Virus record (IMG/VR): IMGVR_UViG_2531839530_000005
Span: 1 to 40,441 of that record
Strand: one strand, 5' to 3'
Origin: a virus
Taxonomy: Duplodnaviria > Heunggongvirae > Uroviricota > Caudoviricetes
Length of the DNA: 40,441 bases
Positions 8,434-9,188 of the stretch are shown piece after piece. Numbering within the stretch: the stretch's first letter is position 1; each line of letters starts with the position of its first letter. A program made the position numbers and the translations under genes. A model generated the notes under the pieces. The model was not told the origin of the DNA and searched no databases. It was given only the letters and a program-made list of their open reading frames with translations.

Positions 8434-8457
8434 AAAAAACCCGCCGGGTGGCGGGTT
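8434..8457 (-). terminator. Rho-independent terminator after the tail-module moron
   Basis: Stem CCCGCC / GGCGGG with loop GGGT followed by T6 on the minus strand. Confidence 0.45.
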
Positions 8458-8473
8458 CATTATTGAAGTTTCA

Positions 8474-8713
8474 TTACTGCTTGTTTGCTTCTAACGCTTC
8501 AGCTATTCGGCGAAGATACTCATTGTTTTTAAATGAAACCATGATGCACTCAAAGAATATTCGGCAAAATACAGCACATAACAAAAGCACTAAAGCGCCA
8601 GCAGCCTTCCCATTAACAAACGTTATAATGGCGGCAACAACCAGAAGTAACATTGTGATGCCATACAGAACGTTGATGATTTTTGGAGTTATTAATTTAT
8701 CAAATCCGAACAT
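8474..8713 (-). CDS. Small two-TM membrane protein (moron within tail operon)
   Basis: 79-aa hydrophobic ORF with its own terminator downstream. Confidence 0.45.
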   Translation of the reverse strand: MFGFDKLITPKIINVLYGITMLLLVVAAIITFVNGKAAGALVLLLCAVFCRIFFECIMVSFKNNEYLRRIAEALEANKQ

Positions 8714-8852
8714 GCGACAAATTCCTTATCGTGAAAGTAGAAGTATCACATTATAATTACGGGTGATTAATCAACAATCTTTTTGCATGGAAAGGAACCG
8801 ATGATTTTCGGCGCATCCATGCTGTTCTGCAGAAGCTGGACGCCAATGTAAT

Positions 8853-9188
8853 TCACTTCACCTTCCGGCAATCATACGTCCAGAACTCCCGAGGCTCGTC
8901 CATATTTTTGCGGATAACTTCAACGTTGAGGATCGCTTTTTTGTTTCGTTTGATGTAGTCCATACCTAACCAACGTCCAGTATTAGGATCAGGTAACATC
9001 CATTGCATCATGACATTATCGAAATCGTCTTTTTGTTTCAAAAAGGTCATTTTTTGTGTTTCTGGCTTTTGACCATTGATGTGCATGAGGCCATCATTAC
9101 CAGCATCAAAGCGGAATGGTCCGCACTGCGTTGCCGCCGAAACTGTTAACGGCAGGGCCAAGAATAAACAAAAAAATACTTTTTTCAC
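8853..9188 (-). CDS. Secreted protein with signal peptide (moron within tail operon)
   Basis: N-term MKKVFFCLFLALPLTVSA signal peptide; two Cys in mature part. Confidence 0.5.
   Translation of the reverse strand: MKKVFFCLFLALPLTVSAATQCGPFRFDAGNDGLMHINGQKPETQKMTFLKQKDDFDNVMMQWMLPDPNTGRWLGMDYIKRNKKAILNVEVIRKNMDEPREFWTYDCRKVK

What the first reader, a model, noticed from the sequence alone, without database searches (positions are those of the whole stretch)
8434..9188. Two-gene moron inside the baseplate operon
A signal-peptide protein (111 aa) and a small two-TM membrane protein (79 aa) sit between the baseplate hub-like and V-like genes and are followed by their own terminator. They are not part of any conserved baseplate set. 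The arrangement fits an envelope-acting accessory function such as superinfection exclusion or a receptor-masking factor.
Basis: inference. Interest (0 to 1): 0.55.

Follow-up and report, generated by a model that had tools for sequence, protein, structure and literature searches.

The report
Cargo hotspot inside prophage baseplate operon
Between two baseplate genes of a defective E. coli prophage lie a small secreted-protein gene that related enterobacterial prophages nearly always keep at that spot and, behind it, a swappable slot that here holds a tiny membrane protein and elsewhere holds toxin-antitoxin and anti-phage genes; this is an ordinary kind of phage 'moron' site, but I found no earlier description of it.

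Summary
Both ORFs, the signal peptide, the two-helix membrane hairpin and the terminator are real. The reading 'two-gene moron' is only half right, because the two genes behave differently.

- **The 111-aa gene (8853-9188).** It is fused to the hub gene by a GTGA overlap. A homolog sits directly after the hub in 138 related loci across Enterobacterales. Its divergence tracks the hub (rho 0.81), not the spike (0.04). Its product is a Sec-exported, disulfide-locked eight-stranded beta-barrel from a tiny orphan family.
- **The 79-aa DUF4282 gene (8474-8713).** It is one of at least 68 alternative cargoes in the slot between p111 and the spike. Other cargoes include PD-Lambda-1, YafO, Fic/Phd, HicA and antirepressors. 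The cassette also sits beside tape-measure genes in unrelated tail modules.
- **The terminator (8434-8458).** It is a fixed 3' border of the slot, present even where there is no cargo, and it shows compensatory changes.

Distant relatives have hub and spike abutting, so the whole insert is accessory. The function is inferred only: envelope-level superinfection exclusion, by analogy with HK97 gp15. This is a new member of a known kind and of moderate interest.

The parts
9185..10258 (-). Baseplate hub gene. It is the upstream anchor of the locus, and its stop codon overlaps the p111 start.
   Evidence: It matches PF22759 E217_GP41 at 2e-07 and phrog_196 'baseplate hub' at 7e-81. Hub homologs lie immediately upstream of p111 in 80 of 80 viral contigs.
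9293..9298 (-). TATACT inside the hub coding sequence (codons Tyr-Thr of the IDYTGD motif). It is a possible -10 element for prophage-state transcription of p111. This is inferred, not shown.
   Evidence: TAT-ACT is invariant in 21 of 22 window-type loci, and Thr is ACT in 33 of 35 loci, while neighbouring synonymous sites vary. The only TATACA variant is in L021, whose p111 is a pseudogene.
8853..9188 (-). p111: gene for a 111-aa Sec-exported periplasmic protein (RefSeq name 'STY1065/STY2022 family phage-derived protein'; phrog_3443). It is the conserved 5' anchor of the cargo slot.
   Evidence: It has a GTGA overlap with the hub stop and a GGAG Shine-Dalgarno sequence 7 nt upstream. Cys22 and Cys107 are invariant. 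AlphaFold2 gives pLDDT 87 and an eight-stranded beta-barrel. Synteny was seen in 138 loci.
9135..9188 (-). Predicted signal peptide of p111 (residues 1-18, MKKVFFCLFLALPLTVSA, with cleavage before A19).
   Evidence: The hydropathy window at residues 1-23 is at least 1.6. Every homolog in the alignment has a basic n-region, a hydrophobic core and a small-x-small motif just before the conserved QCGPF. No dedicated signal-peptide predictor was available.
8767..8850 (-). Relic 3' end of a displaced p111 allele (the E. coli RM8082 / vB_EcoM-606R2 type). It translates to YIGVQLLQNSMDAPKIIGSFPCKKIVD*.
   Evidence: The translation is identical to the C-terminus of the RM8082 p111 homolog. Window 8423-8841 is 99% identical to RM8082 DNA.
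8423..8841 (-). Mobile DUF4282 cassette as delimited by comparison. It holds the relic or native upstream region, the promoter-like element, the gene, the terminator and the spike Shine-Dalgarno sequence.
   Evidence: Eighty-three E. coli genomes carry at least 80% of the 438-base query 8415-8852. Listed hits cover query 9-427 at 98.6-99% identity. Only 27 genomes carry the window-type p111 allele at at least 80% coverage.
8750..8777 (-). Promoter-like element TTGTTG-16 nt-TATAAT upstream of the DUF4282 gene. It was found by eye and falls below the scan tool's -35 threshold.
   Evidence: It is read from the sequence. The scan tool did not list it, because the -35 matches only 3 of 6. An AAGGAA Shine-Dalgarno sequence lies at 8722-8727.
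8474..8713 (-). DUF4282 gene: a 79-aa inner-membrane helical hairpin, predicted N-in/C-in, with conserved cytoplasm-facing motifs (FDKLITPKI; RIFFECIMVSFKNNEYLRRIAEALE). It is the cargo (true moron) of this copy of the slot.
   Evidence: It matches PF14110 at 1.2e-10, above the cutoff, and phrog_12129 at 8e-48. AlphaFold2 gives a hairpin with pLDDT 85.
8434..8458 (-). Intrinsic terminator hairpin plus U-tract. It is the conserved 3' border of the cargo slot, 19 nt upstream of the spike start codon.
   Evidence: It is conserved in 25 of 25 aligned relatives, with 98.9% of cells paired and 3 compensatory pairs; 0 of 500 shuffles reach this. It is found in 130 of 138 loci. It is absent where hub and spike abut.
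7662..8414 (-). Membrane-puncturing spike gene (P2 V-like apex). It is the downstream anchor of the slot, and its CTGGAG Shine-Dalgarno sequence lies at 8423-8428.
   Evidence: It matches the N-terminal spike domain at 1.5e-44, the GpV Apex motif at 9.5e-05 and TIGR01644 below its cutoff. It shares a linkage block with the sheath initiator (rho 0.71) but not with p111 (rho 0.04).

Best explanation
The region is one copy of a conserved three-part insert in the tail operon of SEN34-type (Brunovirus-like) temperate myoviruses of Enterobacterales. The order is hub | p111 | variable cargo | terminator | spike.

**p111** is an old accessory gene, fixed in this clade.
- It is translated by coupling to the hub gene on the Q-antiterminated late transcript.
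- It may also be transcribed from a -10-like TATACT inside the hub gene in lysogens.
- It is exported by Sec and folds into a small eight-stranded beta-barrel closed by a Cys22-Cys107 disulfide in the periplasm.

**The space between p111 and the terminator** is a recombination hotspot that exchanges self-contained cargo. In this window the cargo is a DUF4282 cassette with a promoter-like element. It encodes a 79-aa helical hairpin that inserts in the inner membrane.

**The terminator** stops prophage-state transcripts from running into the spike and wedge genes. Late, antiterminated RNA polymerase reads through it.

**Shown:**
- the anatomy;
- the conservation of p111 and of the terminator;
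- the hypervariability of the cargo;
- the mobility of the DUF4282 cassette;
- the predicted folds.

**Inferred:**
- export and topology;
- read-through of the terminator;
- promoter use;
- function.

My committed functional guess is that the two proteins act independently. Each serves the lysogen at the envelope. The DUF4282 protein blocks genome entry of superinfecting phages at the inner membrane, as HK97 gp15 does. p111 acts in the periplasm against an incoming tail tip or another envelope step.
For: **Anatomy.**

**p111 is conserved and linked to the hub.**
- It lies immediately after the hub, with the start -4 to +7 nt from the hub stop, in every locus examined.
- Identity to the window proteins across 107 distinct loci gives hub-p111 rho 0.81, p111-spike 0.04 and spike-sheath initiator 0.71.

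**The insert is accessory.**
- Hub and spike abut in Bordetella IFTN9, BP63 and Aaphi23.
- Hafnia phage yong1 has an unrelated secreted protein in place of p111.
- p111 is a pseudogene in L021.

**Export of p111.** The signal-peptide pattern and two invariant cysteines near the two ends of the mature protein are seen in all 39 aligned homologs.

**The cargo slot is a hotspot.**
- There are 68 cargo types in 138 loci, from 58 to 2968 nt, including slots with no cargo.
- Cargo includes PD-Lambda-1 (5e-83), PDC-S42 (2e-36), YafO, Fic+Phd, HicA, Arc, Bro-N/P22 antirepressors and EACC1.

**The terminator.** It shows conservation and covariation.

**Late read-through is plausible.** A DUF1133/Q-like gene lies at 24616-25290, upstream of the lysis and morphogenesis genes, all on the same strand.

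**The DUF4282 cassette is mobile.**
- At least 80% of its query is present in 83 E. coli genomes (listed hits 98.6-99% identical), against 27 with this p111 allele.
- It sits directly after tape-measure genes in a Klebsiella siphovirus-type prophage and in another DUF3383-type tail module. It also sits after a lysis cassette in Pantoea and at a chromosomal, non-phage site.

**Functional analogy.** HK97 gp15 is a small inner-membrane protein from a tail-operon moron next to the tape-measure gene. It has chromosomal YebO homologs and excludes superinfecting phages at DNA entry (PMC3594210).
Against: - There is no functional evidence of any kind for either protein. PADLOC gave no hit for either. 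The literature search for DUF4282, PF14110, STY1065 and STY2022 found nothing.
- The conserved residues of the DUF4282 protein face the cytoplasm and its periplasmic loop is only about 3 residues. That does not obviously suit contact with an incoming tail.
- The tight coupling of p111 to the hub gene, and its strict retention, would also fit a role in the phage's own lytic cycle.
- The promoter calls are weak. The DUF4282 -35 matches only 3 of 6 and was not listed by the scan tool. The TATACT in the hub lies in a conserved peptide motif.
- Sampling is biased. Most loci were retrieved with p111 or DUF4282 as bait. Unbiased evidence for p111 retention comes only from the hub-based phage search and the E. 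coli spike-region hits.
Confidence: 0.55

Rival explanations
1. p111 acts in the phage's own lytic cycle rather than for the lysogen. It would be a periplasmic factor made late together with tail proteins. For example, it could mask or modify the receptor so that progeny are not lost on cell debris (as T5 Llp does). It could also tune lysis or protect the envelope until release.
For: p111 is translationally coupled to the hub gene in every locus. It is retained in all sampled members of the clade but one, and it sits in the hub linkage block. No convincing separate promoter was found.
Against: A conserved terminator directly follows p111 even in the cargo-less loci L015, L138 and L176. A terminator has little use on an antiterminated late transcript. 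The TAT-ACT codons upstream are invariant. p111 is intact in this defective prophage, which cannot make virions, although the deletion may be recent.
Confidence: 0.2
2. The DUF4282 protein is a host-physiology or membrane-homeostasis factor carried as lysogenic-conversion cargo, not an anti-phage protein.
For: Close homologs sit at a chromosomal, non-phage site. The family is widespread in Enterobacterales. The conserved motifs face the cytoplasm. PADLOC gives no hit.
Against: In viral contigs the gene is overwhelmingly inside tail operons, next to genes of the injection apparatus: after the tape-measure gene in two or three other tail modules, and between hub/p111 and spike in this one. Neighbouring alternative cargo in the same slot is dominated by defence, toxin-antitoxin and antirepressor genes. 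HK97 gp15 also has chromosomal YebO homologs, yet it excludes phages.
Confidence: 0.2
3. p111 is a structural or assembly component of the baseplate, and its hydrophobic N-terminus is not a cleaved signal peptide.
For: It has a fixed position between hub and spike, overlaps the hub stop codon and co-varies with the hub.
Against: All homologs have a canonical Sec-type N-terminus followed by two invariant cysteines, which is typical of periplasmic disulfide-bonded proteins. Homologous, functional tail modules lack it (BP63, Aaphi23, Bordetella IFTN9), and Hafnia phage yong1 carries an unrelated secreted protein there. The family is tiny and clade-restricted: 56 clusters among 1.84 billion representatives. 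It has no similarity to solved baseplate proteins.
Confidence: 0.1
4. The two genes form one cooperating two-protein exclusion system, with a periplasmic and an inner-membrane partner, in the manner of T4 Sp plus Imm.
For: They are adjacent, both products are envelope-targeted, and they lie next to the spike gene. RM8082-type prophages also carry a p111 allele followed by the identical DUF4282 protein.
Against: They are not co-inherited. p111 is followed by at least 68 different cargo regions or by none. DUF4282 occurs without p111 in several other tail modules and at non-phage sites. The same DUF4282 cassette is joined to two p111 alleles that share only about a third of their residues (33% between the window allele and the same-type allele of vB_EcoM-606R2), and the joint leaves a relic.
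Confidence: 0.05

Closest known systems
HK97 gp15 moron (Juhala et al. 2000; Cumby et al. 2012; reviewed in PMC3594210)
   Same: It is a small inner-membrane protein. Its gene is inserted in a lambdoid prophage tail operon beside a gene of the injection apparatus. It has a deviating GC content, and promoter and terminator of its own. Homologs occur at non-phage chromosomal sites (compared).
   Different: There is no sequence relationship: gp15 belongs to the YebO family, whereas this protein is DUF4282. Exclusion has been shown for gp15 and is untested here. Here the cassette occupies a standing multi-allelic slot bordered by a conserved gene and a conserved terminator.
P2-like prophage hotspots (old/tin and Z/fun; Rousset et al. 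2022; bioRxiv 10.1101/2024.10.15.618418)
   Same: Conserved structural genes flank a hypervariable cargo position inside or beside tail genes. That position carries defence and toxin-antitoxin systems (compared).
   Different: This is a different phage lineage (SEN34/Brunovirus-type tail with lambdoid early genes) and a different position (hub-spike junction). The slot has a secreted-protein gene as its fixed 5' anchor and a covarying terminator as its 3' border. I found no description of this hotspot.
T4 Imm and Sp (own knowledge, not tested here)
   Same: Both involve a roughly 80-aa two-helix inner-membrane protein and a roughly 100-aa envelope protein that interfere with DNA injection and with the spike lysozyme of superinfecting phage.
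   Different: There is no sequence or fold relationship. The two genes here are not co-inherited. p111 is a soluble beta-barrel with a cleavable signal peptide.
Pfam DUF4282 (PF14110) / phrog_12129
   Same: The 79-aa protein is a member: 42.2 bits against a cutoff of 27. It matches phrog_12129 at 8e-48 over the full length.
   Different: The family has no known function, and no paper in the searched library mentions it.
'STY1065/STY2022 family phage-derived protein' (RefSeq name) / phrog_3443
   Same: RefSeq gives this name to a protein 99% identical to p111 in E. coli TUM1880. p111 matches phrog_3443 at 7e-48.
   Different: The name is only a label taken from two S. Typhi prophage loci. No function, structure or paper was found.
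Periplasmic lysozyme inhibitors MliC/PliC (considered because the tape-measure protein of relatives is annotated as a lytic transglycosylase)
   Same: Both are small periplasmic eight-stranded beta-barrels with a signal peptide.

Membership tests
Moron (Hendrix/Juhala definition), applied to the DUF4282 gene | Present in some and absent from other closely related phage genomes at the same position | tested here: met
   The same slot holds 68 different cargo regions in 138 loci. At least 80% of the DUF4282 cassette query is found in 83 of 5426 E. coli genomes, while 313 genomes match the region around it.
Moron (Hendrix/Juhala definition), applied to the DUF4282 gene | Base composition different from the neighbouring genes | tested here: met
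   GC is 0.36-0.40 over 8400-8800, against about 0.48-0.56 in the spike and wedge genes.
Moron (Hendrix/Juhala definition), applied to the DUF4282 gene | Own promoter | tested here: inconclusive
   TTGTTG-16-TATAAT lies at 8750-8777, with a perfect -10 but a -35 matching 3 of 6. The scan tool did not list it. No expression data are available.
Moron (Hendrix/Juhala definition), applied to the DUF4282 gene | Own terminator | tested here: met
   A strong hairpin plus U-tract follows the gene. However, the same terminator is a fixed feature of the slot whatever the cargo.
Moron, applied to the 111-aa gene | Present in some and absent from other closely related phage genomes | tested here: not met
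   It is present after the hub in all sampled enterobacterial relatives except Hafnia phage yong1. It is absent only from distant relatives with hub identity of 33% or less.
Moron, applied to the 111-aa gene | Independent transcription unit | tested here: inconclusive
   The start codon overlaps the hub stop. A conserved TATACT lies about 105 nt upstream inside the hub gene. A terminator directly follows the gene in cargo-less loci.
Prophage cargo / defence hotspot | Conserved flanks, hypervariable content, and known defence genes among the cargo | tested here: met
   The flanks are hub+p111 and terminator+spike. There are 68 cargo types. PD-Lambda-1 (5e-83), PDC-S42 (2e-36), PD-T4-9_C (7e-09), YafO, Fic/Phd and HicA are among the cargo.
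Pfam DUF4282 (PF14110) | Score above the curated gathering threshold | tested here: met
   42.2 bits against a cutoff of 27, covering residues 2-71.
Sec-exported periplasmic protein (p111) | Basic n-region, hydrophobic core, small-x-small cleavage motif, and conserved cysteine pair in the mature part | tested here: met
   This pattern is seen in all 39 aligned homologs, and C22 and C107 are invariant. No dedicated predictor was run and there is no experimental test.
Superinfection exclusion protein | Expression lowers infection by specific phages without loss of adsorption | not testable with these tools
   The only support is the analogy with HK97 gp15 and the genomic context.
Structural baseplate component (p111) | Conserved across homologous tail modules and found in virions | tested here: not met
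   It is missing from the homologous modules of BP63, Aaphi23 and Bordetella IFTN9, and replaced in Hafnia phage yong1. Virion proteomes were not available.
MliC/PliC-type lysozyme inhibitor (p111) | Fold and sequence similarity to MliC/PliC | tested here: not met

The most novel reading that the evidence does not exclude
p111 founds a new family of phage-encoded periplasmic beta-barrel proteins. In this reading it recognises the incoming tail-tip complex of related myoviruses and blocks their genome delivery. Its alleles diverge with the hub block as part of an exclusion arms race. The gene also serves as the fixed landing pad of a defence-gene hotspot whose 3' border is a shared terminator-plus-Shine-Dalgarno joint, a joint reused in other prophage tail operons. 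The DUF4282 hairpin would be a second, independent, widespread exclusion protein that targets tape-measure-dependent entry at the inner membrane.
Probability: 0.2. Interest if true: 0.6.

Novelty: new member of a known kind. Interest (0 to 1): 0.38.

Why it matters
Cargo slots in prophage structural operons are productive places to look for new anti-phage genes. This one is sharply delimited: p111 on one side, and a covarying terminator plus the spike start on the other. It is common, with more than 300 of 5426 complete E. coli genomes matching the region. It already carries validated defence genes next to many unknown ones, including a recurrent pair of a roughly 260-aa protein and a roughly 140-aa HEPN-like protein. 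It is therefore a ready-made mining site.

Two orphan envelope proteins stand out as cheap candidates for superinfection-exclusion assays. One is p111. The other is the DUF4282 hairpin, which recurs next to tape-measure, hub and spike genes in unrelated tail modules. A positive result would give DUF4282 its first function.

For the finding as submitted, the outcome is mostly a clarification. It is a normal moron site, and only one of the two genes is the moron.

Tried and rejected
1. **Chance ORFs.** Rejected. Both ORFs have strong family matches and many homologs. The 102-aa plus-strand ORF 8448-8756 is a shadow of the DUF4282 gene.
2. **NCBIfam.** No hit for either protein, although RefSeq names one of them.
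3. **Fold of p111.**
   - Foldseek against PDB and BFVD gave nothing at E of 0.001 or better.
   - A profile search against PDB sequences gave only nanobody noise.
   - The AFDB library was not available.
4. **Lysozyme-inhibitor idea for p111.** Not supported. Pfam also did not detect an SLT domain in the window's tape-measure protein.
5. **Remote homologs of p111.** A profile search over 1.84 billion representatives found 56 clusters. The three long multi-stretch hits are repeat-protein noise. One hit is a 292-aa lipoprotein with a C-terminal p111 domain.
6. **PADLOC on the two proteins.** Nothing.
7. **Literature.** Nothing was found for DUF4282, PF14110, STY1065, STY2022 or the PHROG ids. 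The SEN34 paper has no virion proteomics, the searches for papers on phages yong1 and Mulock turned up none, and no paper on this hotspot was found.
8. **Two-gene unit.** Rejected on co-inheritance.
9. **Promoter detection with the consensus scanner.** It is not informative here. It missed the by-eye candidates, and it also missed a clear terminator in L033 because the stem absorbs part of the T-run.
10. **First structure job.** It was redone without that row.
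Full report
**What is there**

All genes of the region are on the minus strand. In the order of transcription they are:

| Feature | Coordinates |
|---|---|
| Tape-measure gene | 11177-13204 |
| Dit-like baseplate gene | 10527-11177 |
| Plug | 10191-10523 |
| Hub | 9185-10258 |
| 111-aa ORF, called p111 here | 8853-9188 |
| 139-bp gap | 8714-8852 |
| 79-aa ORF | 8474-8713 |
| Terminator | 8434-8458 |
| Spike | 7662-8414 |
| Sheath initiator, J-like wedge, DUF2612 wedge | downstream of the spike |

- p111 starts with GTG inside the hub stop (GTGA overlap), with GGAG 7 nt upstream.
- Its N-terminus, MKKVFFCLFLALPLTVSA|A, has the build of a Sec signal peptide.
- The 79-aa ORF is a member of Pfam DUF4282, with 42.2 bits against a cutoff of 27. 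It has two hydrophobic helices. AlphaFold2 models it as a hairpin, H10-33 and H37-78, with pLDDT 85.
- The 51-nt stretch around the terminator folds at -16.7 kcal/mol, z -3.5.
- GC falls to 0.36-0.45 across both genes.

**Where the window comes from**

The region is 99% identical to a prophage next to pphA/yebW in E. coli TUM1880. There RefSeq names the two products 'STY1065/STY2022 family phage-derived protein' and 'DUF4282 domain-containing protein'.

The phage type has lambdoid early and lysis genes joined to a contractile tail (DUF3383 sheath). The type example is Salmonella phage SEN34 (PMC5261728).

**The two genes behave differently: p111**

- I searched one genome per species with an alignment of its homologs. 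That gave 19 loci with a substantial match to p111, in Erwinia, Rahnella, Pantoea, Klebsiella, Rosenbergiella, Kosakonia, Trabulsiella and Izhakiella. In all of them p111 lies directly after the hub gene of the same tail module.
- A scan of viral contigs gave 80 more loci. All 80 had the hub immediately upstream, and all 78 that reached far enough had the spike downstream.
- The p111 start lies -4 to +7 nt from the hub stop in every locus.
- A search with the hub protein, which is not biased towards p111, found p111 homologs in SEN34, Klebsiella phages Mulock and ST11-VIM1phi8.3, and the vB_EcoM-606R2 group.
- E. coli genomes picked up through a short match at the 3' end of p111 (E2348/69, IAI1, ETEC-2264, BY63, ST540) also have a 110-117-aa gene after the hub.
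- Across 107 distinct loci, identity to the window's p111 tracks identity to its hub (Spearman 0.81) and not to its spike (0.04). Spike and sheath initiator track each other (0.71).

p111 therefore belongs to the hub block, and the recombination breakpoint lies downstream of it.

**The cargo slot**

- The stretch between the p111 stop and the spike start ranges from 58 to 2968 nt. It falls into 68 types among 138 loci, clustered at 80% identity over 70% of the length. Some loci (L015, L138, L176) have no cargo at all.
- DUF4282 is one cargo type. The cluster looks large (39 loci) partly because 78 loci were retrieved with DUF4282 as bait.
- Other cargo includes:
  - PD-Lambda-1 (E 5e-83), PDC-S42 (2e-36) and PD-T4-9_C;
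  - a YafO toxin, Fic with Phd, and HicA;
  - Arc-like repressors, and Bro-N/P22-type and KilA-N antirepressors;
  - DUF4236, a bPH_2 membrane protein and EACC1;
  - most often, a pair of a roughly 260-aa protein with a roughly 140-aa HEPN-like protein. E2348/69 carries a pair of this layout, of 256 and 131 aa.

This is the content expected of a prophage moron or defence hotspot.

**The terminator belongs to the slot**

- A hairpin of the form AACCCGC-loop-GCGGG, followed by T6 and a (C)YGGAG Shine-Dalgarno sequence, lies just upstream of the spike start. It is there in all 25 aligned enterobacterial relatives, including the cargo-less L015.
- 98.9% of cells pair. Three pairs change on both sides (L007, L026, L027), and no shuffle of 500 reaches this.
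- In the pooled set, 130 of 138 loci have a hairpin plus T-run there. Six of the eight exceptions (L162, L163, L166, L168, L169, L198) lack one; L026 has the hairpin slightly further upstream.
- The hairpin is absent from Bordetella IFTN9, BP63 and Aaphi23, where hub and spike abut.
- A very similar hairpin-plus-Shine-Dalgarno joint follows the DUF4282 gene in Klebsiella siphovirus-type prophages (read in L033, motif match in L034). One precedes the tape-measure gene in the related locus L032. One also occurs in this window at 23654-23690, after an ORF6N gene.
- A DUF1133/Q-like gene at 24616-25290 sits upstream of the lysis, head and tail genes, all on the same strand. By established lambdoid biology, late transcription would read through such terminators. 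That read-through is inferred here, not shown.

**The insert is accessory**

- In relatives with 26-32% hub identity (Bordetella phage vB_BaM-IFTN9, the virulent Salmonella phage BP63, Aaphi23), hub and spike genes are contiguous or overlapping.
- Burkholderia BgManors32 has a single reverse-strand gene for a secreted protein there.
- Hafnia phage yong1 (hub 46% identical) carries an unrelated 136-158-aa secreted protein instead of p111.
- In Pantoea sp. NSTU24 (L021) p111 is split into two fragments.

**What p111 is**

- All aligned homologs have the signal-peptide pattern and two invariant cysteines, C22 and C107, near the two ends of the mature protein.
- AlphaFold2 gives a confident eight-stranded up-and-down beta-barrel (pLDDT 87, pTM 0.74).
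- The family is small and narrow. There are 134 clusters at 90% identity, and every named one comes from Enterobacterales. There are only 56 clusters at 50% identity among 1.84 billion representatives.
- A possible prophage-state promoter exists. The hub codons Tyr-Thr read TAT-ACT in 21 of 22 window-type loci, and Thr is ACT in 33 of 35 loci, although neighbouring synonymous sites vary freely. The one TATACA is in the locus with the p111 pseudogene. This is suggestive only.

**What the DUF4282 cassette is**

- Listed hits to window 8423-8841 are 98.6-99% identical, and 83 of 5426 complete E. coli genomes carry at least 80% of the query. Only 27 carry the window-type p111 allele.
- In RM8082 the identical DUF4282 protein follows a p111 allele of another type. 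An allele of that type, in vB_EcoM-606R2, is 33% identical to the window's p111.
- The window's 139-bp 'gap' still holds the last 27 codons and the stop of that other allele (8767-8850, YIGVQLLQNSMDAPKIIGSFPCKKIVD*). The hub-p111 block was therefore replaced by recombination next to the cassette.
- Upstream of the gene are TTGTTG-16-TATAAT (8750-8777) and AAGGAA (8722-8727). The -35 is weak, and the scanner did not list the site.
- Homologs are widespread in Enterobacterales. In viral contigs the gene sits as follows:
  - 31 times in this slot;
  - at least 34 times directly after a tape-measure gene, in a Klebsiella siphovirus-type module and in another DUF3383-type myovirus module;
  - occasionally after a lysis cassette.
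- One genomic homolog lies at a chromosomal, non-phage site.
- The conserved residues are the N-terminal FDKLITPKI and the stretch RIFFECIMVSFKNNEYLRRIAEALE. By the positive-inside rule these face the cytoplasm. The periplasmic loop is about three variable residues.

**How it most likely works**

Shown:
- the architecture hub | p111 | cargo | terminator | spike;
- the fixed nature of p111 and of the terminator;
- the turnover of the cargo;
- the mobility of the DUF4282 cassette.

Inferred:
- During lytic growth, p111 is made with the tail proteins from the antiterminated late transcript. It is exported and oxidised in the periplasm.
- In a lysogen, cargo promoters (and perhaps the TATACT in the hub) drive short transcripts. 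The hairpin ends these before the spike gene.
- For function I commit to independent envelope-level protection of the lysogen. The DUF4282 hairpin would block genome entry at the inner membrane. The model is HK97 gp15, a small inner-membrane protein from a tail-operon moron next to the tape-measure gene, which has chromosomal homologs (PMC3594210). p111 would act in the periplasm.
- I rate the architecture at about 0.85 and the exclusion function at about 0.3. The overall figure of 0.55 reflects that mixture.

The rivals are listed with their tests:
- a lytic-cycle role for p111;
- a host-physiology role for DUF4282;
- a structural role for p111;
- a cooperating pair.

**Comparison with what is known, and novelty**

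Morons in tail operons, and defence hotspots between conserved phage genes, are well known. Examples are HK97 gp15 and the P2 old/tin and Z/fun sites. This locus is another instance, in a lineage and at a position (the hub-spike junction of SEN34-type tails) for which I found no description. Its particular traits are a secreted-protein gene as a fixed 5' anchor and a covarying terminator-plus-Shine-Dalgarno joint as the 3' border. Both proteins of the finding are functionally orphan. I rate it a new member of a known kind, with interest 0.38.

**Limits**

- Most loci were retrieved with p111 or DUF4282 as bait.
- Signal peptide and topology rest on sequence patterns and models, not on dedicated predictors or experiments.
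- Promoters are by-eye calls.
- No expression, proteome or phenotype data exist for any member.

Noticed in passing
window 13895-13902 (junction); fusion ORF 13817-14551: The prophage in the window is defective. Compared with the near-identical prophage of E. coli TUM1880 (L003), about 4.05 kb is missing. The deletion covers most of the tube gene, the sheath, neck and head-completion genes, and the 5' part of the major capsid gene. It has an 8-bp overlap at the joint and leaves a 244-aa fusion ORF.
   Followed up: partly
window 8767-8850: The apparent intergenic gap holds an 84-nt relic (27 codons plus the stop) of a different p111 allele. It is identical in translation to the C-terminus of the E. 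coli RM8082 homolog. This marks a recombination joint between the hub-p111 block and the DUF4282 cassette.
   Followed up: yes
window 9293-9298, within the hub gene: The Tyr-Thr codons of the hub motif IDYTGD read TATACT in 21 of 22 window-type loci, and Thr is ACT in 33 of 35 loci, while neighbouring synonymous sites vary. This suggests a DNA-level constraint about 105 nt upstream of p111, such as a -10 element.
   Followed up: partly
window 23654-23690 (minus strand), after the ORF6N gene 23784-24359: A second copy of the same kind of joint occurs here: hairpin AACCCGC-CATTGA-GCGGGTT, a T-rich run, CTGGAG, then an ATG at 23644. It lies between the Q-like gene (24616-25290) and the lysis genes, a classical moron position.
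   Followed up: partly
L033 6240-6290 (with L034 6258-6279); L032 3261-3282 (Klebsiella pneumoniae siphovirus-type prophages): Nearly the same terminator-plus-ATGCCCGGAGG joint follows the DUF4282 gene in L033 (motif match at the same place in L034). In the related locus L032 it precedes the tape-measure gene, where the upstream cargo also differs between strains. The joint may be a shared recombination border for cargo in unrelated tail operons.
   Followed up: partly
L041 2226-3378 (E. coli E2348/69); also L020, L135, L173, L174, L184: The commonest cargo of the slot is a two-gene cassette. It pairs a roughly 245-275-aa protein with no Pfam match and a roughly 130-155-aa protein. At least in L135 and L020 the small protein has an R-x4-DY HEPN-like motif, and the L020 one gives a weak HEPN_IX hit. 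The small-protein family occurs in 11 of the 64 cargo-type representatives examined. The E2348/69 pair (256 and 131 aa) has the same layout, but only its large protein was in the clustering. This is a candidate uncharacterised toxin or defence pair.
   Followed up: partly
L001 6876-7388 (Escherichia phage vB_EcoM-606R2): In this phage group the slot holds a 170-aa protein with an R-x4-H motif (IRNNLFHGGK) typical of HEPN domains. It has no Pfam or PADLOC hit.
   Followed up: partly
P0213 (292 aa, from the representatives search): This is a lipoprotein (LSGC lipobox) with an unrelated N-terminal domain of about 195 aa fused to a C-terminal p111 domain. It is the only multi-domain member seen.
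   Followed up: no
window 2033-5093, compared with L003 15655-17494: The tail-fibre and invertase end of the prophage differs from the otherwise near-identical TUM1880 prophage. The flanks on both sides are 97-99% identical. This is consistent with a swapped or inverted tail-fibre cassette next to pinE.
   Followed up: no
L096 (IMG/VR contig) 630-9306: This is a tail module of the same general type: DUF3383 sheath, tape-measure gene, DUF4282, Dit-like gene and plug. It then runs straight into a lysozyme, a DUF2514 spanin-like gene and a transposase-like gene instead of hub and spike. It is possibly a truncated or rearranged element.
   Followed up: no
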